Assembly (NCBI GenBank): GCA_964019425.1
Contig: OZ025805.1
Span: 992,001 to 1,056,000, forward strand
Length of the DNA: 64,000 bases
DNA from: Flectonema sp. DT1601
Lineage: Eukaryota
Reading direction: 5' to 3'
Numbering within the stretch: position 1 is the stretch's first letter; every line of letters begins with the position of its first letter. Both the position numbers and the translations under genes were made by a program. The notes beneath the pieces were generated by a model that was given only the letters and a program-made list of their open reading frames with translations, had not been told where the DNA came from and made no database searches. This document shows positions 2-58,821 of the stretch, in pieces.

Positions 2-2440
2 ATTCAATTCCGACTCGCAGAGCAAGAGCTTAAGTTAATTGGAGAGAACTTGATGTTCTCATTTAACCCAGATGGTTGGTTTCATCAGATAGTTATTTAT
101 GAAACAATAAGAATATATCTGGGACTAGAAGTAACACATGTGACAACCCATGAACAGCTGAAAACAATCACAGTAGGTCCAACAGAACAAGAAACTATTG
201 TCATTCCATACATCATAGTGTCACGTAGAGCAGCCTACACACATTACATCGTCTTTATTGATATAAATTCTAAATACAAGGGATTTGATATAATCAATCC
301 AACTCCAGATTGTAATGGGATAGAAGATATCATGACGAAGTATCCGTTGAAGGAATACGAATACCACGTTGTAATGAAAACAACGAAAGATATTCCTCCA
401 ATAGACTTGTCTGCACTGGCAATAACAGAGTCACCAGCAAAGGATAATTCCACAACAAAAACTACAGAAGTGGAAATTAAAAAATTCACGGACGAGGAGG
501 ATGTAACAGATCTTGAGACAATGATTTCGGCAATCGAAAAAGCGGACAAAATGAAGCCCAAATCGACACCGGGAAAAGTCAATAAGATAGAGATAAGGGC
601 CGTATCACCACCAAAGATATGCCAGGATAATATACCGACCCTGTACATATCGCCGATGGTGAAGATACCACCATTACCAGTACTACTATCACCAGTGTTA
701 CCAAGACCATCAATAATTCCAATGACAATACCAATAACGATACCGAAGATAATAAAAATGGAACCTTCGGTAATGCAAAAAATTATATCGCTACCATCAA
801 ATAGTTTTCAGAAGACGCTAGTCACTGTAAATAATGCACTTACGGTAGCCCCACCAGCAATCCCGACATTGATGCCAGCAACGATTTCAAAGGTATCACA
901 ATTGGCACCGCCGACTGTACTTCAAAAGAAGACACAAGTCATTGCAAATGATGAACTCACACAGGTCCCGCCGATAATTCCAACAATGATACCAACACCA
1001 ATTACAAATTTATCACAATCGACACCGTCAATTGTACTTCAAAAGAATACACAAGTCAGTGCGAGTGATGCACTTACACAGGCCCCGCCGATAATTCCAA
1101 CGCTGATGCCAGCAAGGATTTCAAAAATATCACAATTAGCACCGCCGACTGTAATTCAGAAGAAGACACAAGTTATTGCAAATGAGACACCTACAATGGC
1201 CCCACCTGCAATCCCAACGTTGATGCCAGCAACGATCTCAAAGGTATCACAATTGGAACCTCCAACTGTACATCAAAGTGTGATTCAATCTATGAAAACG
1301 ATACAATTACCGATTGTATCACCATTGGATCTGGATCATAATGATGTGGATATGATCGATATGCCGTCACCAGCAACAGTACAACTGGATACGGACACTG
1401 ACATGGTAATGGAAACTATGTCACCAGAGACGCAGGAATCACCGGAGCATAGATATGCTGGCGTAATGACTCCATCCAAAGACAGGATGGAGTCACCACC
1501 AATAACTCCGATTAAGATTAAGACTCCACTGAAAATAAAGACGCCTCTGAAGATCGAAACTCCGACTAAAATAATTCCACAAACCCAACAAGCATGTTGG
1601 GATGGAAAGAACCTCGAATTAATACGAAGTTTGTCAAAAGAAAGACAGTTGGAGAAAATAGTCACCACATACAGACTAAGATCAACTACACCACAAACAG
1701 TAGCCAGGAAGATGGAAACACCACCTACTGTAAGCAGTAAAGCCACGAATTCCGGAACAACAATACCGATTACACCACAAAAGGTATCAAGAGTACTAAC
1801 ATACACAGATACAGAGAATATCGGTAAAACTTGCAAATATTGCAATAAATCCTGGAAGTCATTTATTGACCATATCAATAAATGTGGAATATTCAGAGCA
1901 TCAAAAGAATATCCAACATATGTTGATGAAGATGATAACACTTCATTTACGGTCACTGAATACAAAACGGATCCTCGAAATAGTATTGTAACTGTTACAA
2001 AAGATGAGACAGAAACTCATATGTTATCTATCAAAAAGAATGGCAAGTTGGCAACACAAACGGTCGCTGATGAACCAGAGAGAAGCAGTAACAAGAGACT
2101 GAACTCACAGAGTCCAATGCGAATTGTGAGAATCAAAAAATACCTGAGCAACCGGAAAAGGCTTAAAAATGAGTGTACTGAACATAAGTTGGCACAGAAA
2201 ATGAAACTTAAAGAAGTACAAAAACAGAAATTAGCAAAGGGAAAGGAAAAGAAGAAACTGAAATTGGTAAAAAGACTCAACTCGCAGAGTCCAATGAGAC
2301 CGATGCTCAGAAGAAATACTCGAAAGAAAAGAAGCAAACAAGATGAACATGATTCTTCAGATGATATGAGTATTTCACAGAGATCTTCAACTCCAGATAT
2401 CCCTGATGCTAAGGAACAATTATCAGACTTTGATAATTAA
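2..2440 (+). CDS. Intronless Pro/Thr/Ile-rich protein with 39-aa repeats, CX2CX9HX3C zinc-finger-like motif and basic C-terminus; probably encoded by a mobile element; 5'-partial
   Basis: The frame has no stop from position 2, so it runs off the left edge. It is A-rich and lacks the introns and poly-T tracts of host genes. It contains CKYCNKSWKSFIDHINKC and a duplicated KRLNSQSPMR, and is followed by a structured RNA and a dispersed repeat module. Confidence 0.6.
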   Translation: MQFRLAEQELKLIGENLMFSFNPDGWFHQIVIYETIRIYLGLEVTHVTTHEQLKTITVGPTEQETIVIPYIIVSRRAAYTHYIVFIDINSKYKGFDIINPTPDCNGIEDIMTKYPLKEYEYHVVMKTTKDIPPIDLSALAITESPAKDNSTTKTTEVEIKKFTDEEDVTDLETMISAIEKADKMKPKSTPGKVNKIEIRAVSPPKICQDNIPTLYISPMVKIPPLPVLLSPVLPRPSIIPMTIPITIPKIIKMEPSVMQKIISLPSNSFQKTLVTVNNALTVAPPAIPTLMPATISKVSQLAPPTVLQKKTQVIANDELTQVPPIIPTMIPTPITNLSQSTPSIVLQKNTQVSASDALTQAPPIIPTLMPARISKISQLAPPTVIQKKTQVIANETPTMAPPAIPTLMPATISKVSQLEPPTVHQSVIQSMKTIQLPIVSPLDLDHNDVDMIDMPSPATVQLDTDTDMVMETMSPETQESPEHRYAGVMTPSKDRMESPPITPIKIKTPLKIKTPLKIETPTKIIPQTQQACWDGKNLELIRSLSKERQLEKIVTTYRLRSTTPQTVARKMETPPTVSSKATNSGTTIPITPQKVSRVLTYTDTENIGKTCKYCNKSWKSFIDHINKCGIFRASKEYPTYVDEDDNTSFTVTEYKTDPRNSIVTVTKDETETHMLSIKKNGKLATQTVADEPERSSNKRLNSQSPMRIVRIKKYLSNRKRLKNECTEHKLAQKMKLKEVQKQKLAKGKEKKKLKLVKRLNSQSPMRPMLRRNTRKKRSKQDEHDSSDDMSISQRSSTPDIPDAKEQLSDFDN
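809..1275 (+). repeat. ~4 tandem 117-bp (39-aa) coding repeats
   Basis: Units of the form QKKTQVIAN...PPIIPTLMPA.ISKVSQLAPPTV; ttcaaaag recurs at 921 and 1038. Confidence 0.85.
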
Positions 2441-2542
2441 AAACACTTTCTACATTTATTGTAGAAAAGTGCTCCACTAGTAGTGAGCTACGAACTAGTA
2501 ACAGCAAAAAATATGTTTTTTTTATTTATGAACATGAAACAC

Positions 2543-2678
2543 AAAGTAACTACATTCCAGTCCTGCAAACTGGAATGACTCAGTCTCAACATTTGACTGA
2601 CTTACTTCTACACCATACTGATGAGAGAGAATAGAGGTAAGAGGTATATGGATTACTCTCGAAACCTATAGTTACTTT
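2543..2678 (+). ncRNA. Hammerhead ribozyme, non-circularly permuted, inside a five-helix junction
   Basis: Core CTGATGA 2618-2624 and GAAA 2661-2664. Stem I ccata 2613-2617/tatgg 2647-2651. Stem II gagag 2625-2629/ctctc 2656-2660. Stem III agg 2642-2644/cct 2665-2667. GUA cleavage triplet 2644-2646. Extra helices: 2601-2610/2632-2641, 2553-2561/2569-2577, 2580-2585/2595-2600, 2543-2552/2669-2678. Confidence 0.75.
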
Positions 2679-2699: not shown

Positions 2700-2905
2700 C
2701 CCTTAGTCACTGTATTTAAAACTAATGTTAAATTATCTTTATGTTTTTATGATACAACACAGTTGTAATTTTTACAAAATCGAACATACAACCCCCCTCA
2801 CCCCCTTAGTCACTGTATTTAAAACTAATGTTAAATTATCTTTATGTTTTTATGATACAACACAGTTGTAATTTTTGCAAAATCGAACATACATCCCCCC
2901 CTCAC
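2700..2905 (+). repeat. Near-perfect 103-bp tandem duplication of a dispersed terminal module (TTAGTCACTGT...CCCCCT)
   Basis: ttagtcactgtatttaaaac at 2703 and 2806. Close homolog at 51840-51940; weaker homologs at ~9845-9948 and ~51303-51398. Confidence 0.9.
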
Positions 2906-3178
2906 CTCAGGAGGCATGAGACTTGTTGAAAATGATATTTGTGGCATGCTATCACACATAGTGATAGATGGTATTTTTTTTGGGGAGAGTAACATTTCTC
3001 AGTTTAAATCAGTTCAAAAATGATCGAAATTAAACGTTCTGAAGGAATTCGATTGAGTCTGATGAATTATTTACGATCTGAAATCTCTATGAGAACACGA
3101 TACGACAGTTATGTATCCCCTGCTGTAGTCGGGACAACTTACTTTAATAATTCCTATACCAGTTTAAAATATATAAAC

Positions 3179-5683
3179 ATGTGGCCTACTCTACTAGCGG
3201 TAGTATTGTTGATGAGATTTCACAAAGGGTTATCAAGTTCTGAAGAGAACGCAGAAGTAAAGTTAGGAATGGTCTACTTTGGAGAGATAAGTGATGTTGG
3301 ATGGACATATCAACACAATGATGGAATGATAGCAGCGAGAGAAGCATTGGAACGTAGAGGAATCAGTATTTACAGTGAAGTATACGAGCTTGTTAAACCA
3401 TCACAGAGTATTACACTATTCGAACAACTTGCTTCAAGGAATTTCAGTCTCGTGATTGGAACGAGTTTTAGTTTCAGAAATCAAATTTTTAACGCATCTA
3501 AGTACTATCCAAATACAAATTTCTTACATGTCTCAGGTATCGATTCTGGTGTACCAAACTTCAAGACAGCATTCGGTAAATTATATCAATCACGTTACTT
3601 AGCAGGTATTGCTGCCGGAGGTACTTCTAAGACTGGAAAGATTGGATACGTCGCTTCGATACCAATCCCTGAAGTCATGAGATCGATAAATTCATTCTTC
3701 TTCGGGGCTAGAGAAATAAACCCTAACGTGACATTAATCGTAACATGGGTTAATACATTCTATGATGAATCTCGAGAAGAAGAAGCTGCCCGAAGACTTG
3801 TTCACTTGGGATGTGATGTTGTAGGGTACCACACTGACTCTCGTGCTGTTCCGAGATACATGGCGAGAAGAAAGTTATTTTCAGTTGGATCAAACAGTGA
3901 TATGCGAAGAATCATAGGTGAGTCAATTCTATTAAGTGCTTACTTCAATTGGGGTAAGATCTACGAAGACATGATGTACCAGTCGTACACAAAGACGTTT
4001 TCATTAACATCACCATCTCTGTGGTATGATCATGCTCAGGGAGTAGCTGTGGCATCGATGCCGTCATTTAATGTCCCGAAGATCGTATCGTCTGAAATTG
4101 CATTGCGAAGTCAAAAAATGACTCATACAAGTTTTGATCCTTTTTGTCCAGATGATCGTCCTCCTCCAATTGAGTTCAATACATTGACAGGATGTCCTTC
4201 TGAACTTCAAATCTTAACTGAAATATCAACCATTCCTAACAATGTTAATGTCAAGGATATTGGGGATGTACAGTTCTTTGGAGAACTTTGCCCTCCCGGA
4301 ACAAGATACATCGAAACTATTATCATGGACACCTCAATTTATAATATTACATGCGTACCGTGTCAACCAGGAGAATTTTCATTTTTTGAGGGAGTGGAAG
4401 GTGTTTCTAATTGTAGTAAGTGTCTTCCGGGTACATTTTCAACCGATTCTGAGTCATCTGTGTGTTTGCCTTGCTCTATTGGATTCTATGCACCGACACC
4501 TGGGTTATCACTGTGTCATCCTTGTCCTTCAGACTATACAAACAATATCCCTGGATCTCTAGACTGCCCAATAAAAAACCAATCAAAAGTTCTTATTGGA
4601 GTTTTAGCAGGTGTTTGTTCTGCTTTCTTTATTATTGCATTGATATTCACATGGAGATACACTAGAAATGCTCGTAGAATGGCTCTTCTACATTCAAATA
4701 ATTGCATTGCCGAACGCTGCGCCGAATCCATTGCCGCAATGAGATTGGAAGAAGTTGAATATATAAAAAAGATCCAAAGACCTAATAGAATTCAGTTAGC
4801 ATTTATTACGATAGTTGAAAACCTTATTGAATACAGGAGGTATCTACCTCAGAGTATTGTGGATGGTGCTTCAGATGTTAGTAGTGAGGAAGTTGTTAAG
4901 GAGAACTCTCCGCTAAAACAGGATAATTCTGAACAACAACAACAACAGATAGAAATAGTATCAAGTTTTCACAATGTCTCAACTAAAGGAAGTTGCAAGT
5001 CATTAAAATCACTGAAGTCAGGATCTGCATCCCGAAAAAGCTTTTTTAACGGCCAACTAGCCGCTCAATTAGATCTGGGTGTTCGTAGTAGAAAATCGTC
5101 AATTCTACTTGTTGATTTCTCTCATCCAGTTCGTAGTGGGGTTGCGTCAATATTTGAAGTTTCTGCCTCATTCACAACGGATGTTCTCGCAGCCGTAGCA
5201 GCAATCGAGGGAACGATACTTGAGATGCGTGGAGATGGGTGTCTCTCTGTCTGGAATGCATTTAAGCCTTCACCAAGACATGTTTTCCGAGCCTGCAACT
5301 GTGCGATAAATGTAAACAAAAAACTATCATCTCGAAAATTTGAAAATAGATTCTCGATTATAGTCAGTACGGGAATGGTTGCTGTTGGTCACTTTGGAGA
5401 TTTGCAACGACGAGCTCCATTTGTTTTTGGAGTTCCCGTTGCACAGGGCAGGCGTATGTTGTCGCTGAGTGATAAACTGGGCTGCCATGTTTTCTGCTCT
5501 GAAAAGGTTCATGAGGCCGCAAATTCACAGATATTAATGCGTCCGATCGATGTCATTCAAGATATCGACATGGCCAGCAAGATTTCAATCTTCGAATTGG
5601 TGGACATCAAAGACGAGCTCAGCCTCAACAACGACAGTCAATACTCCGAATACCTGTTTGCTTTTAATAGTGTGTACATTGTA

Positions 5684-5716
<33 letters not shown>

Positions 5717-7003
5717 GAAAAAAGAAAAAAGAATAATAATATCCGAAACAAAAACAAAACAGAATTCGTATCTGGAGATTGTTGTGAGGCTCTCGAACTA
5801 TTAAAAGGTCTTCAAACGGAAGGACATGTCCGCAGACTAGTAACACACTGCGAACAGATTATCGCAACAAACCCTGATCACTACTGGAGGAAGTGGGTTG
5901 GTTGGGATGGAGAGAAAGTGTCATGTGCCGAACCTCGCGAAGTGACTTGTGCAGTAGTATCTCCAAAAAACCGTCGTCAGTCAGAGGCACTTCGCTCAGA
6001 TATCAAGGCTGCGGCAGCAAAAAAAGAAAATTCTGACAGCGATTACAGCACTGAGTCTTCAGCTTCACAACAAATACCTGAACGCTTTGTCGGTATGAAA
6101 AAATTATTCTGTTTTTTTTATAATACTTTACTATTCCTGGTCTTTATAAAACACAATTCTAAAACAGACAGAGAAGGCTGCGGATGGAATGTATCCAATG
6201 TTATGTTAGGAAGTGGTGGTAATGGTGAGGTATGGAAAGGAATGGGTGATGACGGAAGCTTAGTAGCAATGAAGTCAACAAGAATGCCAAAGGAACAACA
6301 ACCAGCTAGAAAGAAAATGATGTCACAATCAACAGATCCTTTGAAAGATCTGTTAGTTGAGGTTAGTATGCTTTCTAAATTAGTTCATGAGAACATCGTA
6401 TCAATTATTTCAACTGCGGTTGTTGGTCATACGGTTATACTTATCATGGAACTTGTACCCGGGGGAAGTCTTATGTCTGTTTTGGATCAATTTGGGACTT
6501 TACACTTCGAACCGCTCCGCAGATACTCTAGAGACATCCTTCGTGGACTTCACTTCCTTCACTCAGAAGGAGTGATTCACAGAGATTTAAAACCTGCTAA
6601 CGTTTTGCTTCTCATTGACGGACAAGCCAAATTAGCCGATTTTGGTGCTGCAGCTGAAATTTCAAAAGGAAGTACTCTTGTTCTCGGTACTCCCCAATAC
6701 ATGGCTCCAGAAGCTTGTAGGGGTGAGGCTGTAAAGAAGTCCGACGTTTGGTCATTCGGTATTGCCTTGCTACAGTTAATAACAGGTAAGATGCCATGGG
6801 GAGATGACGTTCCTACTAATAGTGTGGCATTCACTCGTCAACTGTCAAAGAATGAAGGAATGATGCCTGAAATACCGACTGAGTTAGACAGCTCATATGG
6901 TGGCGTTCAAATCCTTGAAATGATCTCAAAATGTTTAACGAGATCTCCTGATTTGCGTATTGGAGTTGATGCTCTGTTGACGGATGTCGTGTTTTTAAAG
7001 TAG
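3179..7003 (+). CDS. Receptor-type protein: signal peptide, BMP/PnrA-like solute-binding domain, Cys-rich repeats, TM helix, degenerate class III cyclase-like domain, STE/MAP3K-like Ser/Thr kinase. join(3179..5669,5763..6092,6168..7003)
   Basis: BMP-type DVGWTYQH..G and KIGYVASIPIPEV. CxxCxPGxF repeats. TM VLIGVLAGVCSAFFIIALIF. Cyclase-like MRGDG and STGMVAVG. Kinase GSGGNG, HRDLKPAN, DFG, YMAPE. The GT-AG intron 5670-5762 restores frame; 6093-6167 is in frame. Confidence 0.85.
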
Positions 7004-38595: not shown

Positions 38596-41500
38596 ATGTC
38601 ATTCTGCTGCGGAGGCAGCGAACTACCGATCGAGGATGAGATAGAAAAGTATAGAGAAGTCAGCGCATACGTTACAAGAGAGCCTAATGTATTGTACTCT
38701 GTTCATAAAGACCCTCCAAATCCAGATTTACAGGTGTGGGGAGCTTTTGCCGTAGCATCGTTATATTTTGGTACATTTATTGAATATATCGACATCTTAA
38801 TCGGTTTTGAAGTAGGTAAGACTCCAACTTCCCAGATGTGGGGAGGAAATTCCGAAAAAACCAAAACATTTCTTCGACAAACATCTCTCTTAAGCAGATC
38901 ACTTGATCGCTTCAGTCAAACATGTCTGAGGCCTTTTATGGTTAAGGTCGTTGGACCAATTATAAAAACAATGCTGACACTACCACCTCTTCCTGACTTA
39001 GGAGACACTGACAGCACTGGCAGAGAAGAAATTGTAAAAGTAGTAAACATGTTTATTACGTCACTAAGAGATAATTTAAACTCCTGTCCTCCAATGCTAA
39101 GAAGAATCTGTCTAAGGATCAGCAATGCAGCAAAGATGTGTCAGGGGAATGCTTCTCATATGGTATCATCATTCATTATGTTGAGATGCCTCACACCATC
39201 AATTGCTGTACCAGAACGATATGGTTTAATTGAGGCTATGGGTATTTCTGAAAGTCAATTGTCAGTATCACGTAATAATCTGTTATTAGTTTCAAAAGTG
39301 TTGCAAAAACTTGCAAACGGAACTCGATACGGAGCTGAATTCGCTTCCATCAACGAAGCCTTTGACGAGTTATCACCTCGATTTCAATCAGCTATTATGT
39401 CTTATGCTAGTGAGCCTGCTTCTACAAAGGGAGCGTATGCACCTCCATCGAGTCTTGCTTTGGAAGAAGTAATTGAAACATGTACAGGATTACATAAAGA
39501 TCTTCACCGGTCATATTCGATGTTTCACAGATCATTGTGTCATCTGACTCCGTTAATTGATGGTCACGCAATAGTTCAAAAGATGTTGTCGTTGTTGCCG
39601 GTTGCTCCTCCTCATTTGGCATTCGCATTGGCACCGACTCAGAAGCTAAACGACGACGGAGTTCAAGAAACTGATATCGATGTTCAATACAATCAATCAC
39701 TACAAGACGCTCATCATCCATTAGAAGACCTCGCTGTTAAATTAACTTCAGTTATGCGAACTCGTTGCTTTAGAGTTTGTGGTATGAATAAAGATCGCTG
39801 CTCTGTTCTTCAAATCATCTCTCACCGTATCCCTACGGACCCTTCTATGCAACACGCTCTTCAGTTGTATTTTATAAAATTGTATGTTTTGCTTTGTTTT
39901 GTTTAGTTAAATAACTAATTGTTCTGTAGTGACCCCACTCATTTCTTTAATGGCATAGATTGCTTGGACGACATCGTAATATTATACTTCCTGATGAACT
40001 TTATTAATCCTTGAAATCCGACTTCTGAGTGAGGATAACCTTAACATGACTAACTATTACTGATAAACATGTGTTCTCTTGTTGTTGTCGTCATCTTGTT
40101 GGGGTTGTGTTGTTCTTGTCAGCTGTTCTTTATTGCCTTCACTCACTACCTGATGAACTTTATTAATCCTTGAAATCCGACTTCTGAGTGAGGATAACCT
40201 AAACATGACTAACTATTACTGATAAACATGTGTTCTCTTGTTGTTGTCATTATCTTGTTGGGGTTGTGTTGTTCTTGTCAGCTGTTCTTTATTACCTTCA
40301 CTCGCTACCTGATGAACTTTATTAATCCTTGAAATCCGACTTCTGAGTGAGGATAACCTTAACATGACTAACTATTACTGATAAACATGTGTTCTCTTGT
40401 TGTTGTCATTATCTTGTTGTGGTTGTGTTGTTCTTGTCAGCTGTTCTTTATTACCTTCACTCACTACCTGATGAACTTTATTAATCCTTGAAATCCGACT
40501 TCTGAGTGAGGATAACCTTAACATGACTAACTATTACTGATAAACATGTGTTCTCTTGTTGTTGTCGTCATCTTGTTGGGGTTGTGTTGTTCTTGTCAGC
40601 TGTTCTTTATTGCCTTCACTCACTACCTGATGAACTTTATTAATCCTTGAAATCCGACTTCTGAGTGAGGATAACCTAAACATGACTAACTATTACTGAT
40701 AAACATGTGTTCTCTTGTTGTTGTCATTATCTTGTTGGGGTTGTGTTGTTCTTGTCAGCTGTTCTTTATTACCTTCACTCGCTACCTGATGAACTTTATT
40801 AATCCTTGAAATCCGACTTCTGAGTGAGGATAACCTTAACATGACTAACTATTACTGATAAACATGTGTTCTCTTGTTGTTGTCATTATCTTGTTGTGGT
40901 TGTGTTGTTCTTGTCAGCTGTTCTTTATTACCTTCACTCGCTACCTGATGAACTTTATTAATCCTTGAAATCCGACTTCTGAGTGAGGATAACCTAAACA
41001 TGACTAACTATTACTGATAAACATGTGTTCTCTTGTTGTTGTCATTATCTTGTTGGGGTTGTGTTGTTCTTGTCAGCTGTTCTTTATTACCTTCACTCGC
41101 TACCTGATGAACTTTATTAATCCTTGAAATCCGACTTCTGAGTGAGGATAACCTTAACATGACTAACTATTACTGATAAACATGTGTTCTCTTGTTGTTG
41201 TCATTATCTTGTTGTGGTTGTGTTGTTCTTGTCAGCTGTTCTTTATTACCTTCACTCGCTACCTGATGAACTTTATTAATCCTTGAAATCCGACTTCTGA
41301 GTGAGGATAACCTAAACATGACTAACTATTACTGATAAACATGTGTTCTCTTGTTGTTGTCGTCATCTTGTTGGGGTTGTGTTGTTCTTGTCAGCTGTTC
41401 TTTATTACCTTCACTCGCTACCTGATGAACTTTATTAATCCTTGAAATCCGACTTCTGAGTGAGGATAACCTTAACATGACTAACTATTACTGATAAACA

Positions 41501-43086
41501 TGTGTTCTCTTGTTGTTGTCGTCATCTTGTTGGGGTTGTGTTGTTCTTGTCAGCTGTTCTTTATTGCCTTCACTCGCTACCTGATGAACTTTATTAATCC
41601 TTGAAATCCGACTTCTGAGTGAGGATAACCTTAACATGACTAACTATTACTGATAAACATGTGTTCTCTTGTTGTTGTCATTATCTTGTTGGGGTTGTGT
41701 TGTTCTTGTCAGCTGTTCTTTATTGCCTTCACTCGCTACCTGATGAACTTTATTAATCCTTGAAATCCGACTTCTGAGTGAGGATAACCTTAACATGACT
41801 AACTATTACTGATAAACATGTGTTCTCTTGTTGTTGTCGTCATCTTGTTGGGGTTGTGTTGTTCTTGTCAGCTGTTCTTTATTGCCTTCACTCGCTACCT
41901 GATGAACTTTATTAATCCTTGAAATCCGACTTCTGAGTGAGGATAACCTTAACATGACTAACTATTACTGATAAACATGTGTTCTCTTGTTGTTTTGTCA
42001 CTGTCGGCTTTTGTTTTGTTAAGAATTAGAAAATATAAAAAATAACAAAACCACAGGATGGATGGGATCGTGTGTTATCCTTATTATATTACAATGTTGG
42101 TTGAAACACAACTGGGAAACTCAGCAGCTCGTTCGGTTTTTGGATGGTTGCGGAAAACCTTTGATACCGTATGTGAAATATCTTATTAATTTCAAAACAA
42201 CAACGACAACTAACTCAACTCAACAATAAAATAACAGGCACTCACAGCAAAGTATAAGAAGAACTTGAAGGGATTGTACTTTTTAAATCCACCTCTTTGG
42301 GTGAAAGGATTACTACAAGTCTTTCAACCCTTAGTATTAAATAGAGTTATTAGAAAGATAAGTTATGCTGCATCTGTTCCTTCTCTACTTGAAGAGCTTA
42401 GCATGGATGCTAAAAGGTTCCCTGTTTCTCCTTCAATTGCAGATGACTGTGGTGCTGTTAAGATTCAACCATCGATGGGGATTGCTTTGAGTGAAGTTAT
42501 GATTCGGCCTATTCAAGTAGATATGGATTACCCTTCTCTTCCTTATCAATGTATTAATTGGATTAAGATGCATGGACTGGCACTAAATGGAATATTCAGC
42601 ATGGAAGATATTAAAGTAATACCCGAGAGTAATAGTGTTCAACAAGACTTATCGAGTATAGGTTTGCATTCAACAGCTCATCTTCTTGTTCAGTTTATCG
42701 CTGCTATCCCTGGAGGGTTATTAGGACCTCAAGTGATGGAATTACTATCAGCAGCAGCTGACTTACATGTGGCACCTGAAGATTTGGAACAGTATGAAGA
42801 AATGAATAGACTTCCTGCTTCTGAACGAATCTTATCTTCTCTAAGTAGGCTTCCACAGGTTAATTTAGCACTGACTCAAGAGTTCTTTTCATTACTTCAT
42901 TTGGTTGCTATAAACTCTGCGTCTAATCATATGACAATATCAAAGCTGACTTCTTTATTAACATCGAAAGTGTTTTGTAACACGGCTGTTTCTATTCCAT
43001 CTGACTCCGAGAAATCAATTACTAAATTCTTAATATCACAACCTGCAGAGTTTTGGACAGAGGTATGGAAATTGCAAAACGGATAG
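38596..43086 (+). CDS. RasGAP + CRAL-TRIO/BCH + RhoGAP-like multidomain protein. join(38596..39881,42057..42168,42238..43086)
   Basis: RasGAP FLRQTSLLSR, FIMLRCLTPSI, SKVLQKLAN. Splicing rebuilds YFIKLMDGIV..FGWLRK..KYKKNLKGLYFLNP (BCH-like). RhoGAP-like LPQVN..NHMTISKL. Confidence 0.85.
39990..41993 (+). repeat. Intronic tandem array, 159-bp unit, ~12.6 copies, each with box C/D-like motifs
   Basis: ctgatgaact starts at 39991, 40150, 40309 ... 41740, 41899 (13 starts, exact 159-bp period). The array lies inside the 2175-nt intron 39882-42056. Confidence 0.97.
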
Positions 43087-51569: not shown

Positions 51570-51940
51570 GTAGTGACTAGCCAGGCAGGGCATTTTGATT
51601 TACATTAGACAGCTAGGCAAGTGGCGCTCAACTATGTTCACGTGGCCTCCAGTGGTATTATTTATTTATTTGCAGTCATTTACTACGCTGCCGCTGACAG
51701 TCAAGATTGTCGGAGAAATTGTTGTTCCTTTTGAGCTTGAAAATACAGTATCAAATTACCCCCAGCTAAGTTAGAAACATTTAATATAATGTAAAGTATT
51801 TACTTCAATCGCAGAGTGTATACTACACTAACATTACCTTTAGTCACTGTATCTCAGAACTAATGTTAAATTATCGTTATGTTGTTTATGATACAATACA
51901 TTTGTATTTTACGTACAAACTCGAACAGTTAGCCCCCCTC
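51570..51940 (+). mobile_element. Diverged relative (B) of the structured CCCCCT-ended element
   Basis: Shares aagttagaaacatt..tataatgta..gcagagtgt with A and the 100-bp terminal module with 2703-2905. agtgacta 51572-51579 pairs with tagtcact 51841-51848. Confidence 0.6.
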
Positions 51941-53044
51941 CAGCATTTCTTTCTCTGATAGTTTATTTAAAGCATGCGATTTTGTGTGGACAGAATCCAG
52001 TTATAATGATTCATGTCTAATTTGTTGCGTGTTAACCCTTGATTTATTTATCCAAGTCCCCCCATATCTGTTCCAGCGTCCTTAATAGGTGTTGAAGGAC
52101 ATATTACCTCACTGCGTGCAGAGAGATAGTGAGTGATGACAATTTTCGTTGTAACGATGTTATGGGAATTTCCCCCATATCCCTTCTTTGATTAACAACT
52201 ACAAATATTCTTCAGTCAAGTACTTTGATATTAATTTTGTTTTTAATACCTAAAGTTGTTACTGTTTTTACATTGTCAAAGTTTCACCCCCATATCCCGA
52301 TTTTAATTGTAAATTGATTTTTTTTGTGAATAGCACAATCATTACGACTCATCCTTTGTTCAGAAGCTTCGAAAGGTTGATGAGCCAGTCAGTATCAAAA
52401 TATTCGTTCTACGATGTCTGAGTTTTTGATTATGGACAGCACTTTCAGATGAGATGATCGAGTTAGCTCGTTTCTACTTTTCGAAGGTATTTCATAATTA
52501 GTATCTCTCTATAGTAAATGCAATGCTGTTGTCCGTGATGATGTCTTCTCACGGCTCACGGTTGATTGTTTTTTTTTTGTTTTTTTTGTTTCATAACCGT
52601 CATTGATACAACTGCATCAGTGTTTTTCATTCCCAACCCAGTGTGCGCTTAGAGGTCTCTGGCACATGCACACGCACTAATCTTCCGAAGTTGGTGTTGT
52701 CAAGTCTTCTGCTTCTGGTGGCTGAGTTACAAGTCAACTTCGTCATTACCGTTCATTTACCCTTTTCCTCTCTTCGCGATAGCTTCATCTATTAGCAAAC
52801 TTTGACCGACCTTCGGTTTTAAGTTAACTAAGTTCTCACCTTTTACACTTTCTTCCTCGTTTTACACTAAAAAAAATCCTTAAAGCAAGACATTTTCTTG
52901 TTTTTCCTAAATTTCCTATTGTTGTTGTGGTGTAGTTTTTGTGTCTATTTTTCTTTTCAGCAGGTAAAATCATATCCAACTATATCTGTGATGGTTCTCG
53001 GTCTTTTTCCTACGCAATCGTTCAATTCTACAAACAGGATTCAT

Positions 53045-55003
53045 ATGGACTACGACATCATAAATGGGATTTCGACTTTTTTTCAAATATATGATGATTC
53101 AAAAAAAAATCACATAGATCAAATTATTGAAGAAGGTGGGCAAGACGCAGAAGTAATTACTGCTGAGCTGGAAGAGATGTACGGAACGAGATTCTTTAGA
53201 GTTAGAAAACGACTGATTGAGATTGTCTCAGTATTTGAACACACCGAAGACGTTGATAGCATGCTGTTGGCAAACCCGAAAAATGAAGATCAAGTGCTTG
53301 AGAATCTTCTTTCTAACTATGGGGACCCATTAACAGAATACGAAGAATATTTATTGTTCTTCCAACTGTACTGTCCGCATGCAACACAATTGCTTCCTCA
53401 GCAGCTACAACGCTATGCCTCTCGCCTGCCTGATTACAGAATCTCACTCGAAAAGAAATTCGGAACTTCATACTTCTCTGCCTTGGCAGAACTTCAGCAA
53501 ACCTCCAACCTCCGTCCTAAAACACTAAGAGGGATTCTGCAAGCAGCAATTGAGGGTAATGTCTCACTAAGAGATGTAGTTGATGAACATCAAAAGGGTT
53601 TAGCAGGACCATGTAAGGAAAAGCAACCCGACTACGCAAAAACAACAGAGTCTTGGTCTTTGAAACTTACTAGTTTATTTGAGATCTACGCCCCTTCAAA
53701 GCTTCAAAGCATTCCTTATTTGCTGGAGAAGTACTCTGGTCGCGAGCGCGATCTGTGGCGACTTCTTGTAATGAAGTACGGACCTGATCCAGCTTGGGTA
53801 AAGAGAGTAAAACATTATTTACTAATAAACAAGATTGACACAGGCGGAACAGCCGCTGAGCTACTACTTGAGAATGCAGGCGCAGAAAGGGCAGCATTAC
53901 AAAAACTTTTCAGACATCACGGTGTTGACTATGAAGGAAGAGACAAGTCACTGGTTGAGGCTTCATTCCGTGAACCTCCTGCATCAAAAATCCATAAACT
54001 ATGCTATGAATTTGAAGTACCAGTTCCTAAATTCACTTCAGAGGATGCGAACTCTACTTACATCAATCTTGTCCAAGCTCACGGAGTGACACGCTACATT
54101 GCCGAACCACGTAATAAAGATTTTGAGCACCGCGTGGTCAACATTTATGCTTATTATGCTCCCGAGAAGCTGTCAAACATCGCAAAAATATTAGCAAAGT
54201 ATCGTGGGGTAGAGGAACAGCTCATAACTGCTTTGACTGACAAGTATGGTTCCGAACCTTACCCATGCTGGTCTGGAAAACGAGACATTTACAAACAGCG
54301 GTTAACAGCTTTGTATGAAAAGGTTGTGCGAGAGAATGAGTCAATGGACGACAAGCATGTTGATAAGTTGCTTCAGAAATACACGGGGAAGGAAGAAGAA
54401 TTGATAGGCGCAATTCTTAAGAAATATGGGGATCAGCCTTCTGAGTCGTCTGTTATAAACCTCAGGAGATACTACCTTGAATATGAGCCTGAGAATTACC
54501 ACCAAATGTCAACAGAGCTTCGTAAACATGTAGGAAATGAATATGTCCTGGCCCAGAGAATGTACGAAAAGCATGGCAGGCTTTGCGGATTGGTGAATTA
54601 CAGAGGATTGAGAATTCTTGATGACGAGAAGGAAACAGGTGATGTCGCTCTCCTCCTCAATACAAAGGAGAGAATCACCAGATGGAGAGAAGAAGACAAT
54701 GAACGTTCTTCTCGCAGTGGCATAATTCGCAATTTCTTTGAACTTCGTCTACACTTAACAGTGGCGCTGATTACTCAAACAGCCCACAGAACTCTTTTGC
54801 GTTCTCGTTACAAGTTTTGGCTCAAGACACATTACTCCAAATGTGGGAAAGCTCTGCCTGGTGCAGACGGACAATCAAACTGCAGTAGTCACCTTTACCA
54901 AAAGATGACTGCAAATCGCTACAGCACCATGGCTGCGATGCGAGCCTCAAAGTCGATGAATCAAAAGAAAACCAGAAAACGAAGGGGAAGCATGGCAGCA
55001 TAA
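53045..55003 (+). CDS. Protein built of repeated ~45-aa helical modules (Y.PEKL..I..LL.KY.G.EE.L...L..KYG)
   Basis: The module recurs ~8-9 times; the ORF extension upstream of MDYDII looks non-coding. Confidence 0.8.
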   Translation: MDYDIINGISTFFQIYDDSKKNHIDQIIEEGGQDAEVITAELEEMYGTRFFRVRKRLIEIVSVFEHTEDVDSMLLANPKNEDQVLENLLSNYGDPLTEYEEYLLFFQLYCPHATQLLPQQLQRYASRLPDYRISLEKKFGTSYFSALAELQQTSNLRPKTLRGILQAAIEGNVSLRDVVDEHQKGLAGPCKEKQPDYAKTTESWSLKLTSLFEIYAPSKLQSIPYLLEKYSGRERDLWRLLVMKYGPDPAWVKRVKHYLLINKIDTGGTAAELLLENAGAERAALQKLFRHHGVDYEGRDKSLVEASFREPPASKIHKLCYEFEVPVPKFTSEDANSTYINLVQAHGVTRYIAEPRNKDFEHRVVNIYAYYAPEKLSNIAKILAKYRGVEEQLITALTDKYGSEPYPCWSGKRDIYKQRLTALYEKVVRENESMDDKHVDKLLQKYTGKEEELIGAILKKYGDQPSESSVINLRRYYLEYEPENYHQMSTELRKHVGNEYVLAQRMYEKHGRLCGLVNYRGLRILDDEKETGDVALLLNTKERITRWREEDNERSSRSGIIRNFFELRLHLTVALITQTAHRTLLRSRYKFWLKTHYSKCGKALPGADGQSNCSSHLYQKMTANRYSTMAAMRASKSMNQKKTRKRRGSMAA

Positions 55004-55119
55004 CACTGTTCTTTGTTCTGTACCATTTTTGTATCTGTAGATTCTTTTTTTATTTTGTTATTTGAAGCTGTCAAAACTGTTCCTTTTTTTAACCAGGAAA
55101 AAAAGCAGATGTATAAAAT

Positions 55120-55192
55120 TGCTCCGGGCGGGGTTTGAACCCGCGACCCCAGGCTCATAAGACCTGTGCCCTAACCACTAGGCCACCGGAGC
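55120..55192 (-). tRNA. tRNA-Ile(UAU), intronless
   Basis: GCTCCGGTGGCCTAGTGGTTAGGGCA-CAGGT-CTTATGA-GCCTG-GGGTC-GCGGG-TTCAAAC-CCCGC-CCGGAGCA folds as a full cloverleaf with anticodon TAT. Confidence 0.95.
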
Positions 55193-55319
55193 CTCCTTTT
55201 TCCCCGATTTTATTTATTTATTTATTACCCGATTTTTACCCGATTTTTTCATTTCTTGTGTTCCCTATTGGTTACCCTTTTTTTTTTTTTTTGGTTACTT
55301 GTCGGTGCTTCCAGACTCT

Positions 55320-58300
55320 TTTCTTTAAATGTCTGAGCGTTTGCCAATATGACCCTGACGCACTAATGTCGGATCATACACCTATCTTAGCGGACTTCGA
55401 TATCACGACTTTCTCAAACTTTAGCAACTCACCACCACACCGCAAATGGCTCCTCAATCAGTTCCAAGATGCACACTGGACAGCCTTTTCTGATACATTG
55501 GAATCACACACAACACGACTATTAAAGATAAAATCCTTGAAGAAACTCTCAAACAACTTTGTCCATACGGTAGAAAAAGTAGCAATCGCCAAGCTACCCA
55601 ACAAGTGGTGCAAGCCTCGACACAAGGGAAGGGAACGTATCCTAGCTCCTCTATCCCCCAGCCAAGTAGCCTCCCAAGGTTGTGATAAGGGCTTCTCGTG
55701 GACCTACAGAAAAATACGGGAACTCAGGGGTGATAAGACGGCACTTCCAACACCACGAGCTCCAATGACGTCGCTTATAAGCCGTTTCTTCCCAAGCGGC
55801 TCTGACAGTACTAGGCCAGAAGCTCCAAAGGTAAAACCTGGTGACTATGAAACTCCGGAGTGTAGTCCTTTCTCGCAGGAAGAAGCCCGGGCTGTGTTCA
55901 GTTCCCTCAAGAGAACAAACAGTGCAGGACCGGACTCCATCTCGAATAACATGCTTCTACATCTGGGACCGCAAATGATTTTGGTACTCCTTCGTATAGC
56001 CAACTGGTCTCTAAGACGAGGTATCCTCCCCGAGTGTTTCAAAAAGGCAAACGTCATTCCTTTTCTCAAAGGCAATGGAAAAGACCCCTCAGAACCTTCT
56101 TCGTACCGCCCTATTTCAATGACTTCTATTGTTGCAAAATTCATTGAAGCTCTTATCCTTCGCCGATTGGAACACCTATTGGAGGGGAGCTTAGACCCCA
56201 ATCAGTCAGGCTTTGTTCCTGGCAGAACTACGGATGAAAATATTGCGATCTTGGCTAACGCTGCGTCGGAAACCAGACAAGACTTCGAAAAATGTGGCGT
56301 ATTACTCTTCTTTGATATCTCCGGAGCTTTCGACAACGTAAGCCATCGTATATTAGTAGAAAGACTTATCCCGCTGTTGCCCAAACCATATGTACGATGG
56401 TTAGTGGACTTCCTTTCGAACCGTTCAGCGCGGCTTCTTTATGGAAAAACATACTCGAAGAATATTGGTTGTAATAAGGGGGTACCGCAGGGTAGTATTC
56501 TGGGACCTCTCCTTTTCAGGCTGTACGTCGACACACTCCCGCAGTCTGTCACGAAAGCAGACATTAAACTGCTCTACGCTGATGACCTCTCAGTATTTGT
56601 GAGCAGCAATAAGATTGGAGACCTTGAAACCAAGGCCAATGAAGCGATTGGACAGGTAGAAAGCTGGCTCTCTGACTCGAACATGAGTTTGTCGCAGGCC
56701 AAGACCGAATTCCTGGCGATCGGCACTCGATTTGACTCCGGCAAGGGTCTCTGCAGATTCCCTAGGCTGTACCTACCATCAACGAAAAGACTAGAATCCT
56801 TCTCCCAACCGTCGCTCTTGTTGGACAAATTAGACGAAGGTCCTGGCGCTCAGTTAAATTTGGAAAGTGGTCCCGTCTTTCCCTTGACAATGAATGGGAG
56901 AGACGTATCAACTCGAACCGATTTTCGCAGCAGGGTTGGCAAGAAGAAGCTTGACATTTTTACAGCAATACCTATTCGCCGTGTTGAACATGCTCGCTAC
57001 CTGGGTGTGCTGATTGACGATAGACTGACATTCGAACCCCAGCTGAATAAGGTGACTAGCACTATGAAACGGGGAATTGGTCTCTTGAAGATGATCTCAT
57101 CTTTCGAAATTAAAACTGAAGTGCTAAGGCAACTTGTTAACGGCCTTGTACTAGCGAGAGCTTACCACGGACTTGCAGCATATGCACCCTATCTCCGCCG
57201 AGACTCATGGAAACGCGTAGAAACCATACACAGGAAGCTCATGCTTAAGCTAACTGGTTGCTCTTCATCAGCTTCGGTCCAAGCTGTTTCAGTAGAATCC
57301 GACATCCTACCATTCAAACAACACCTGGCTAAATCCATGGCTCTCATCTACGAACGTTACCAACGATACGCAGAGAATGCTCCGACCTGGAGTCTTTTCA
57401 ATGGAGAGGGGGAGGAAGGACGTTGGGAATCCTCAGCAACCCACTTCTCGAAATGCTTCCCGACGCCCAGTGTCAAGTCCAGATTCTACCTGCCTCACCA
57501 TCAGGCTCCTTGGGAACCTCCTCCAAACGTCACGGTTCTGCCTTCAAGGGACTTTCGTAAGTCATCAGACACAGAGCACAACCTAAATTATGCCCTTGCA
57601 TCAATCGAATCCTTGCCACCTGCGATTGCACGTGTTTATACAGATGCTTCTTACTTTGAGGACAAAGATGGGTGTTACCACTGTGGGAACGCTGCGGTCT
57701 TGGTTTTCCGAAATAAATGTTACACGAAGCTACAGCGCTATAACCCCTCTCTGATGATTTACAACGCAGAACAGAGGGCTTTGATCTCGGCTCTGGATAT
57801 CGTCCGCGATAATTCGCCACAACTACCGAACGGCAGGATACACATCATATCCGACAGCCAGTCATCGCTGAGTAGCTTGGCCAAGGGGTACCTCTGCCAG
57901 CATTCGCGCACCAACCACGAGATTCTCAGCCAGATTTCCACCCTGAATCGCCCGTTTACGATGCAGTTTGTACCTTCTCATTGTGGTGTTATTGGAAATG
58001 AGTTAGCTGATAGCCTGGCTTCCAAAGCTGCGTCATCTGAGATACCGCTCACGGAGGTTCCCTTTGACTACCGAATGGCTCAATGTTCAATTGTGAACCA
58101 AGTCAGAAAAGCATGGCTTCGCTCCCGAGATACGCGACACGTCCACAACTTGGCAACATCGTCTGGTAGGGTACAGAAGTTCCATCAGGACCTTTTAAGA
58201 AGTGACGAGATTATTATAGCCCGAGTGAGAACGGGTCATCACGAACTGGTAAAGCTCCCTGCCTTGGGTCTTACTGACTGTCGATTCTGTAATCACACCG

Positions 58301-58821
58301 ACACAGACGCACATCACCTTCTCTCGAGATGTAATGGCGCGAGGATCATAGTGCAGCAATTCTTCCCGGACATCCCGCAATGCGATGACCCGACAAATGA
58401 CGGACAACACCACCATACGTTCTTTGCCACAGAGAATCAGCCGAAACTAGCTGCAATGCTGAAGGACCTGGAGAGCTACCTGCAGAGCTTTCCGCTGCGT
58501 GCGGCCCTGCCGAGACAGTGGTTATTGAGGCATCTTGTTAAATTCTCTAACCTTCCGAAACTCACTTCTCGAGATAAGCTCGAAGTCTTACAAGCCATCG
58601 ATAATGCCTACAATCACACGGTGATCGAGGAAATACACAATTTTCTGTGGACAGTTGAGCTTTTCTGCTATAATGGTATAGAAAAGACTCAATTTACTGA
58701 TCTGCTCAATAAGATCCACTACGCCAACTATGAGCGGATAGAACGGAAGTGGTTCGACTACAAGGTGCGAGGTCCTCCGACTCGGAGTTACATAGATATA
58801 CTATTCAAAATTAATCCCTGA
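55320..58821 (+). mobile_element. 5'-truncated non-LTR retrotransposon (Ingi/I-group-like): APE remnant, RT, RNase H, CCHC zinc finger
   Basis: SDHTPI (end of APE). RT motifs AGPDSI, SYRPISMTS, QSGF, FFDISGAFD, GVPQGSILGP, LYADD, YLGV. RNase H YTDAS, AEQRA, SDSQS, VPSHCGVIGNELAD. Zinc finger CRFC..HHLLSRC. No internal stops. The left boundary is approximate. Confidence 0.95.

What the first reader, a model, noticed from the sequence alone, without database searches (positions are those of the whole stretch)
2543..2678. Hammerhead ribozyme with a scrambled (non-circular) strand order in a five-helix junction
Seen: every hammerhead core element is present with canonical identity (CUGAUGA, G10.1-C11.1, GAAA, C15.2-G16.2, GUA cleavage triplet, 5-bp stems I and II). 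However, the cleaved strand AGG-UA-UAUGG (2642-2651) lies between the two halves of stem II. Established: types I/II/III are circular permutations (A-B-C, B-C-A, C-A-B), whereas this order is A-C-B, which standard descriptors would miss. Seen: the connecting linker forms a 10-bp helix (2601-2610/2632-2641, one G-U), two more hairpins abut it, and a perfect 10-bp stem (2543-2552/2669-2678) closes the unit. Nearly every base is explained, which argues against chance. Inference: a kissing-loop or dimeric self-cleaving RNA that cuts after A2646 and processes the element's transcript. Non-circular hammerhead permutations have been reported as rare; I do not know of one in a euglenozoan element.
Basis: partly seen in the sequence, partly recalled or inferred. 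Interest (0 to 1): 0.92.

Follow-up and report, generated by a model that had tools for sequence, protein, structure and literature searches.

The report
Scrambled hammerhead ribozyme ends Penelope-like elements
The tail of a jumping gene in this protist carries a predicted self-cutting RNA whose parts come in a rare scrambled order, published from only two soil sequences; the same order can be read at the tail of all eight published roundworm relatives, a group reported to lack the usual self-cutting RNA.

Summary
Every core base, stems I-III and four scaffold helices are present; a generic descriptor finds this one site in the window and none in 300 shuffles. The order is not new: it is type CSG of Eckert et al. 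2023, published from two unique soil-metagenome sequences that cut slowly in vitro. The setting is new. The RNA lies 206 nt after the stop codon of an ORF whose relatives encode N-terminal GIY-YIG, CxC, reverse transcriptase and a protease-like domain, i.e. a Chlamys-type Penelope-like element, in a likely euglenozoan. Naiad/Chlamys elements were reported to lack canonical hammerheads, yet by eye 8 of 8 nematode Naiad consensus sequences in Craig et al. 2021 end in a complete type-CSG fold. Relatives in public runs conserve the unit (1 change in 136 nt against 17 in 229 flanking, one contig). Cutting is untested, stems I-III show no covariation within this family, and one RNA contig spans the site uncut. 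The scan earlier noted one type-CSG copy in another genome, and differently wired hammerheads in animal Naiads. Eight paper searches found no CSG-retroelement link.

The parts
2..2440 (+). C-terminal 812 codons of the single long ORF of a Chlamys-type Penelope-like retroelement: protease-like domain (aa 1-130, Josephin-like by eye), proline-rich repeats, CxxC-x9-H-x3-C motif at aa 611, basic tail. RT and endonuclease would lie upstream of the window.
   Evidence: colinear with P0037 to the last residue, 40-42% identity in the end blocks; 41% to P0073, which holds GIY-YIG and RT
2543..2678 (+). Five-way junction closed by helix 2543-2552/2669-2678, holding the ribozyme and two accessory hairpins
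   Evidence: conserved in relatives
2553..2577 (+). Accessory hairpin, 9 bp
   Evidence: a relative's contig end shows 2 compensatory changes and 2 broken pairs of 9, another a C-G to U-G change
2580..2600 (+). Accessory hairpin, 6 bp
   Evidence: in a relative 3 of 4 listed changes fall in the loop and one turns G-C into G-U
2601..2641 (+). [quoted passage not shown]
   Evidence: same element as in published type CSG
2613..2629 (+). Block C: stem I 5' strand, CUGAUGA, stem II 5' strand
2642..2651 (+). Block S: stem III 3' strand, GUA triplet with predicted cut between 2646 and 2647, stem I 3' strand
   Evidence: cut position by analogy with PMC10085705
2652..2655 (+). 4-nt linker AUUA from stem I to stem II
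   Evidence: similar A/U-rich 3-5 nt linkers in published CSG and nematode Naiads
2656..2667 (+). Block G: stem II 3' strand, GAAA, stem III 5' strand
2700..2797 (+). 3'-terminal segment of the element, ending in a C run
   Evidence: relatives diverge into different flanks at 2797-2799
2803..2900 (+). Tandem second copy of the 3'-terminal segment (98% identical, period 103), resembling a partial tandem
   Evidence: a 130-nt tandem of the same end is seen in run X1
51832..51938 (+). Dispersed copy of the 3'-terminal segment from a sister family (83%), ending at the same C run, with no ribozyme upstream

Best explanation
This is a type-CSG (non-circularly permuted) hammerhead fold in the 3' untranslated tail of a Chlamys-type Penelope-like retroelement, predicted to cut its own RNA after A2646 and likely used to cut the element's RNA out of longer transcripts. 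Shown in the sequence: the core, the stems and the position between stop codon and 3' end. Inferred fold: the nested helices form first; the loop of the linking helix and the loop closed by stem III then pair as stems I and II within one molecule, and the covalent links hold stems I and II together in place of the usual loop-loop contact. The outer helix and two hairpins likely insulate the fold and support a stem III of only 3 pairs. Inferred role: in a partial-tandem insertion, a cut in each terminal repeat would release one unit-length RNA with 5'-OH and cyclic-phosphate ends that could be circularised and reverse transcribed, as proposed for other Penelope-like elements (PMC4209133). In a host whose long ORFs all run on one strand, this would also free the element from read-through transcripts.
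For: Core and stems complete, 0 of 300 shuffles. Same connectivity as CSG-1 and CSG-2, which cut at the predicted site at 0.004 and 0.026 per min. ORF family is a multi-copy RT element: members on many long contigs; P0073 has GIY-YIG-like motifs at 309-396 without CCHH, CxC at 607, DKT at 724, RYIDD at 1019 and an A-B spacing of 86 aa against 82-83 in Naiad-like hits and 64 in a canonical-type hit; the best outside RT hits carry N-terminal GIY-YIG. One contig of run X2 has 1 substitution in 2543-2678 and 17 in the 229 flanking bases (p = 0.004; non-coding listed changes only, p = 0.014). A relative in run X1 adds U after A9, a variant that the published CSG descriptor allows. 8 of 8 nematode Naiad consensus sequences carry a full CSG fold near the 3' end with unrelated stem sequences (read by eye).
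Against: No cleavage data. Stems I-III are invariant in the few relatives seen, so this family gives no covariation for them; 0 changes in 67 core bases against 18 in 298 is p = 0.054. A contig from an RNA library spans the predicted cut site unbroken (X2), so uncut or re-joined RNA, or DNA carry-over, exists. One contig end shows an extra A before the core that may shift stem I (X2 record 10, 12 loose letters). The window's own subfamily was traced only as far upstream as the protease cysteine (P0022, P0023); RT and endonuclease come from sister subfamilies at about 41% identity. The GIY-YIG Pfam match is weak (E 0.014, below the cut-off). No short copy seen begins at 2647. No published Chlamys record that I read has a CSG fold.
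Confidence: 0.75

Rival explanations
1. The fold is a real type-CSG hammerhead but works as a dimer or in trans: the C-block loop of one RNA pairs with the stem III loop of another copy, as tandem repeats allow for minimal hammerheads of other Penelope-like elements.
For: Both halves are loop-loop contacts that two molecules could make; stem III joins the linking helix with no spacer, a feature the discoverers found hard to fit to the crystal structure; minimal PLE hammerheads are thought to act as dimers.
Against: CSG-1 and CSG-2 cut as single constructs during transcription; the local tandem repeat does not include the ribozyme; stem III forms with probability above 0.9 in the monomer; zero-base spacers also occur in Pristionchus and Ascaris Naiads.
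Confidence: 0.08
2. The ribozyme cuts, but is a passenger or a brake: it limits the element's RNA or protects neighbouring host genes from read-through, and retrotransposition does not need it.
For: Craig et al. raise that hammerheads may simply parasitise PLEs; published CSG rates are slow; other Naiad/Chlamys families carry other wirings or type I.
Against: Retention in 8 of 8 nematode Naiad families and purifying selection here suggest a benefit to the element; the position matches other PLE hammerheads.
Confidence: 0.12
3. The structure is conserved for another purpose (RT or endonuclease binding, 3'-end signal) and no longer cuts, or the core match is chance within a structured UTR.
For: An RNA-library contig spans the site; weak nested pairs compete inside both loops.
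Against: All catalytic bases are canonical and unchanged in relatives; 0 of 300 shuffles; 0 of 248 pattern-matched control loci pass the pairing filter.
Confidence: 0.05

Closest known systems
Type-CSG hammerhead ribozymes CSG-1 and CSG-2 (Eckert et al. 2023, PMC10085705; main text parts 1-6 of 8 and 15 of 28 supplement hits for 'CSG' read)
   Same: [quoted passage not shown]
   Different: Published examples: 5 sequences, 2 unique, soil metagenome DNA, no known host or element, GUC site, stems 6/6 bp, 8-bp linking helix, 2-nt spacer to stem III. Here: nuclear retroelement of a likely euglenozoan, GUA site, stems 5/5 bp, 10-bp linking helix with 2-nt linkers, no spacer, and a five-way junction around it.
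Naiad/Chlamys Penelope-like elements (Craig et al. 2021, PMC8557442; abstract, sections 6 and 9, passages, supplement parts 1 and 13-16 of 59 and search hits read), closest in layout Chlamys-1_cBra
   Same: N-terminal GIY-YIG without CCHH, CxC, DK motif, finger insertion in RT, C-terminal protease-like domain plus a C/H motif, C-run at the 3' end, short tandem 3' copies.
   Different: Reported to lack canonical hammerheads (two type-I exceptions); known from green algae, spike mosses and slime moulds, not Euglenozoa (0 hits for 'euglen'). The record before Chlamys-2_cBra shows no CSG core in its last ~630 nt.
Type-I hammerheads in pseudo-LTRs of other PLEs (Cervera and de la Pena 2014, PMC4209133; passages read)
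   Same: Hammerhead in the 3' terminal repeat; proposed role in cutting and circularising the element RNA.
   Different: Type-I circular permutation, often minimal and dimeric; here a doubly pseudoknotted order with a stable stem III.

Membership tests
Hammerhead ribozyme | CUGANGA, GAAA, G10.1-C11.1, U16.1-A15.1, NUH site | tested here: met
Hammerhead ribozyme | Stems I, II and III abutting the core | tested here: met
   5, 5 and 3+1 pairs
Hammerhead ribozyme | Site-specific self-cleavage | not testable with these tools
   only contigs were available; one RNA-library contig spans the site
Hammerhead types I, II, III | Circularly permuted block order | tested here: not met
   order is C-S-G; Rfam no hit
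Type-CSG hammerhead | Block order C, S, G | tested here: met
Type-CSG hammerhead | [quoted passage not shown] | tested here: met
   10 bp and 4 nt
Type-CSG hammerhead | Covariation in stems I-III | tested here: inconclusive
   stems invariant in the few relatives; different sequences with the same pairing only across unrelated Naiad families, by eye
Naiad/Chlamys PLE | PLE-type RT with finger insertion, CxC and DK motifs | tested here: met
   in sister subfamilies P0037, P0044, P0073; this part lies outside the window
Naiad/Chlamys PLE | N-terminal GIY-YIG endonuclease | tested here: inconclusive
   motif present by eye in P0067 and P0073, Pfam E 0.047 and 0.014, below cut-off
Chlamys rather than Naiad | Endonuclease lacks CCHH and the CX2-5CxxC finger; DK without fixed A | tested here: met
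   no cysteine in P0073 residues 1-530; DKT; no tree with labelled references was built
Chlamys-1_cBra type | C-terminal Josephin-like domain | tested here: inconclusive
   Cys, GWF and His motifs by eye; no Pfam or PDB sequence hit; model pLDDT 43, only non-significant papain-fold rows including PcJOS at E 0.2
PLE insertion structure | 5' pseudo-LTR that repeats the ribozyme upstream of the ORF | not testable with these tools
   the 5' end lies outside the window and no genome is held

The most novel reading that the evidence does not exclude
Type CSG is not a two-sequence curiosity but a standard ribozyme of the Naiad/Chlamys retroelement clade, used by nematode Naiads and by a euglenozoan Chlamys family whose RTs share only about a quarter of their residues with Naiad-like RTs. 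The reported lack of hammerheads in this clade would then be a search artefact, the two soil sequences would be tails of such elements, and this clade would be a place where hammerheads are repeatedly rewired.
Probability: 0.6. Interest if true: 0.78.

Novelty: new variant of a known kind. Interest (0 to 1): 0.66.

Why it matters
It gives a biological home to a ribozyme permutation whose discoverers called its support modest and knew no host. It bears on an open point in Penelope biology: the most abundant clade was said to thrive without canonical hammerheads, which had been used to doubt that the ribozyme matters. At least nine more natural CSG designs (this one and eight nematode ones) become testable in a tube, with varied helix lengths that would show how the knotted order fits the known core. 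It also extends Chlamys-type elements to a likely euglenozoan.

Tried and rejected
No genome is held, so copies could not be collected. Rfam: no hammerhead hit. Family-specific pattern in viral contigs: 0. These patterns are narrow, so this does not show absence. L154 is a duplicated type-I minimal hammerhead, not CSG. RT search of viral contigs: none. Structure prediction of the protease-like domain failed (pLDDT 32 and 43) and the fold search was not significant. The protein atlas and the wide fold search did not complete. The 159-bp array at 39990-41975 matches CUGAUGA but has no hammerhead stems. The minus strand folds but has no CSG core. A Dualen-like non-LTR element was considered because of the protease-like domain and dropped on the RT type. 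That the three runs match mostly the 3' end is not counted as evidence, since 5'-truncated copies would give the same. The runs share only 7-10% of words with the query and were not used to name a habitat. The Naiad sequences were checked by eye only, with no shuffle control or covariance model.

Full report
Observation. Block C (CCAUA, CUGAUGA, GAGAG) spans 2613-2629, block S (AGG, UA, UAUGG) 2642-2651 and block G (CUCUC, GAAA, CCU) 2656-2667. Stems I and II have five Watson-Crick pairs each and stem III three plus the U-A pair. A 10-bp helix encloses block C, and with two hairpins and a 10-bp outer helix forms a five-way junction with three unpaired bases. A generic descriptor for this order found 1 site in the window and 0 in 300 dinucleotide shuffles. 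The nested helices, including stem III, have pair probabilities of 0.79-1.0; stems I and II cross them and are pseudoknots. Rfam has no hammerhead hit.

What kind of ribozyme. Eckert et al. 2023 (PMC10085705; main text parts 1-6 of 8; 15 of 28 supplement hits) split the hammerhead into blocks C, G and S. The order here is their type CSG. They found 5 sequences, 2 unique, in soil metagenome DNA; both cut at the predicted site at 0.004 and 0.026 per minute. [quoted passage not shown] So the wiring is known and validated, but rare and without a known host.

What it belongs to. The ORF ending at 2440 has no Pfam match. Its relatives are many proteins on long contigs of one source collection. Following them upstream gave P0030, P0037 and P0073. 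The window protein is colinear with P0037 to the last residue and 41% identical to P0073 over its first 189 residues. P0073 has a GIY-YIG-like segment at 309-396 with no cysteines (weak Pfam match), then CxC, DKT, an RT with a finger insertion (motif spacing 86 residues, against 82-83 in three Naiad-like hits and 64 in one canonical-type hit), and a protease-like domain. The best outside RT hits, at 22-25% identity, include proteins with N-terminal GIY-YIG. These are the features that Craig et al. 2021 (PMC8557442; abstract, sections 6 and 9, passages) give for Chlamys elements, and the C-terminal layout recalls Chlamys-1_cBra. The Josephin label is by eye and was not confirmed. The RT and endonuclease of the window's own subfamily were not seen. 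The element ends in a C run at 2792-2797, 151 nt after the predicted cut: a tandem copy, a dispersed copy at 51832-51938 and contigs in two runs end or turn at the same place. The host is likely a euglenozoan: 20 of 20 ORFs of 300 aa or more lie on one strand, a calpain carries DUF1935 (its restriction to this group is recalled), and a reductase ranks trypanothione reductases just below one glutathione reductase.

Evidence from relatives. Three public runs hold parts of the tail. One contig of run X2 covers 2381-2745 with 18 substitutions; 1 falls in 2543-2678, and it keeps a pair as U-G (p = 0.004); two A's are added at the junction base 2668. The 67-base core has 0 changes (p = 0.054 alone). 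A contig of run X1 has three loop changes, one G-C to G-U change, four unlisted changes near its 5' end and a U added after A9. A contig end in X2 shows two compensatory changes and two broken pairs in the 9-bp hairpin. Against: stems I-III do not vary, so they give no covariation; the X2 contig comes from an RNA library and spans the cut site; and one contig end has an extra A before the core. These are single low-depth contigs.

The wider pattern. Craig et al. report that Naiads and most Chlamys lack canonical hammerheads, and mark eight Naiads whose core halves lie 35-50 nt apart; here they lie 36 nt apart. I read the 3' ends of the nematode records in their File S5 by eye. All 8 of 8 fit type CSG. 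Linking helix; stems I/II/III; site: Ppac and Parc 11; 6/5/11; GUC. Nbra1 11; 5/5/9; GUC. Nbra2 13; 5/5/5; GUC. Nbra3 9; 5/4/5; GUC. Hcon 14; 6/5/9; GUC. Hpol 16; 5/5/8; GUU. Asuum 11; 6/5/5+5; GUC, with U after A9. Three of these were labelled half core, one core, four not at all. Two chelicerate records read in full at the end (Lpol, Ptep) do not fit; two other Naiad hits have GAAA before the CUGAUGA; two hits near the end of the Chlamys file read as type I with a long loop II; the record before Chlamys-2_cBra has no core in its last 630 nt. The remaining 44 of 54 Naiad ends and most Chlamys ends were seen only through motif searches that miss matches across line breaks. None of this was run through a program.

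How it likely works. Shown: the parts and their position. Inferred: the nested scaffold folds first and leaves two loops that pair as stems I and II in one molecule; the linking helix and the 4-nt linker tie the ends of stems I and II together; the RNA is cut after A2646. Inferred further, following the model of Cervera and de la Pena (PMC4209133, passages): cuts in the two terminal repeats release a unit-length RNA that can be closed into a circle and copied into partial tandems. I put this at 0.75, a passenger or brake role at 0.12, a dimer at 0.08 and a non-cutting structure at 0.05.

Novelty. The ribozyme meets every testable feature of type CSG; the retroelement setting, the host group and the five-way scaffold are new as far as I could find. 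Searches: hammerhead with non-circular permutation, Penelope-like with Chlamys, Naiad and hammerhead, type-CSG (only the 2023 paper), Naiad with ribozyme and permuted since 2022, Penelope-like with diplonemid, hammerhead with Euglenozoa, hammerhead with nematode and Naiad, non-circularly permuted with retrotransposon since 2023. Most were seen as listings only. The 2026 retrozyme preprint (10.64898/2026.07.22.740005, part 1 of 5) searched type I only in the part read; PMC13725137 cites the 2023 paper in its reference list. Subscription journals are not covered. Earlier notes of this scan describe one type-CSG copy in another genome and other rewired hammerheads in animal Naiads; they gave the lead to Naiads and are not evidence.

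Noticed in passing
window 39990-41975: 13 copies of a 159-bp tandem unit with UGAUGA, CUGA, UGAGGA and CUGA boxes; looks like an array of one box C/D snoRNA.
   Followed up: no
window 55117-58821 (and ORF 52871-55003): 1234-aa ORF with RT and RNase H, likely a non-LTR retrotransposon; the Ingi-like label is recalled, not tested.
   Followed up: no
window 51740-51938: Sister-family copy of the element's 3' end whose upstream letters match a contig end in run X3 rather than the ribozyme region; may be a ribozyme-less derivative.
   Followed up: partly
run X3 record 13, window 2458: A contig joins 3'-terminal-type sequence to position 2458, upstream of the ribozyme; could be a tandem or circle junction of a short ribozyme-bearing unit. 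One contig, depth 2.
   Followed up: no
window 3008-7003: BMP-family ligand-binding domain, cysteine-rich repeats and a downstream protein kinase ORF in a receptor-like arrangement.
   Followed up: no
L154:80-200: Type-I minimal hammerhead with a tandem duplication of its GAAA half, mimicking the CSG pattern.
   Followed up: partly
PMC8557442 File S6, near part 51: Two records near the end of the Chlamys file carry what reads as a type-I hammerhead with a very long loop II, which the paper's text does not list among its exceptions (by eye).
   Followed up: no
window 2444-2489: Two small hairpins just after the stop codon (2447-2467 and 2470-2489), not studied.
   Followed up: no
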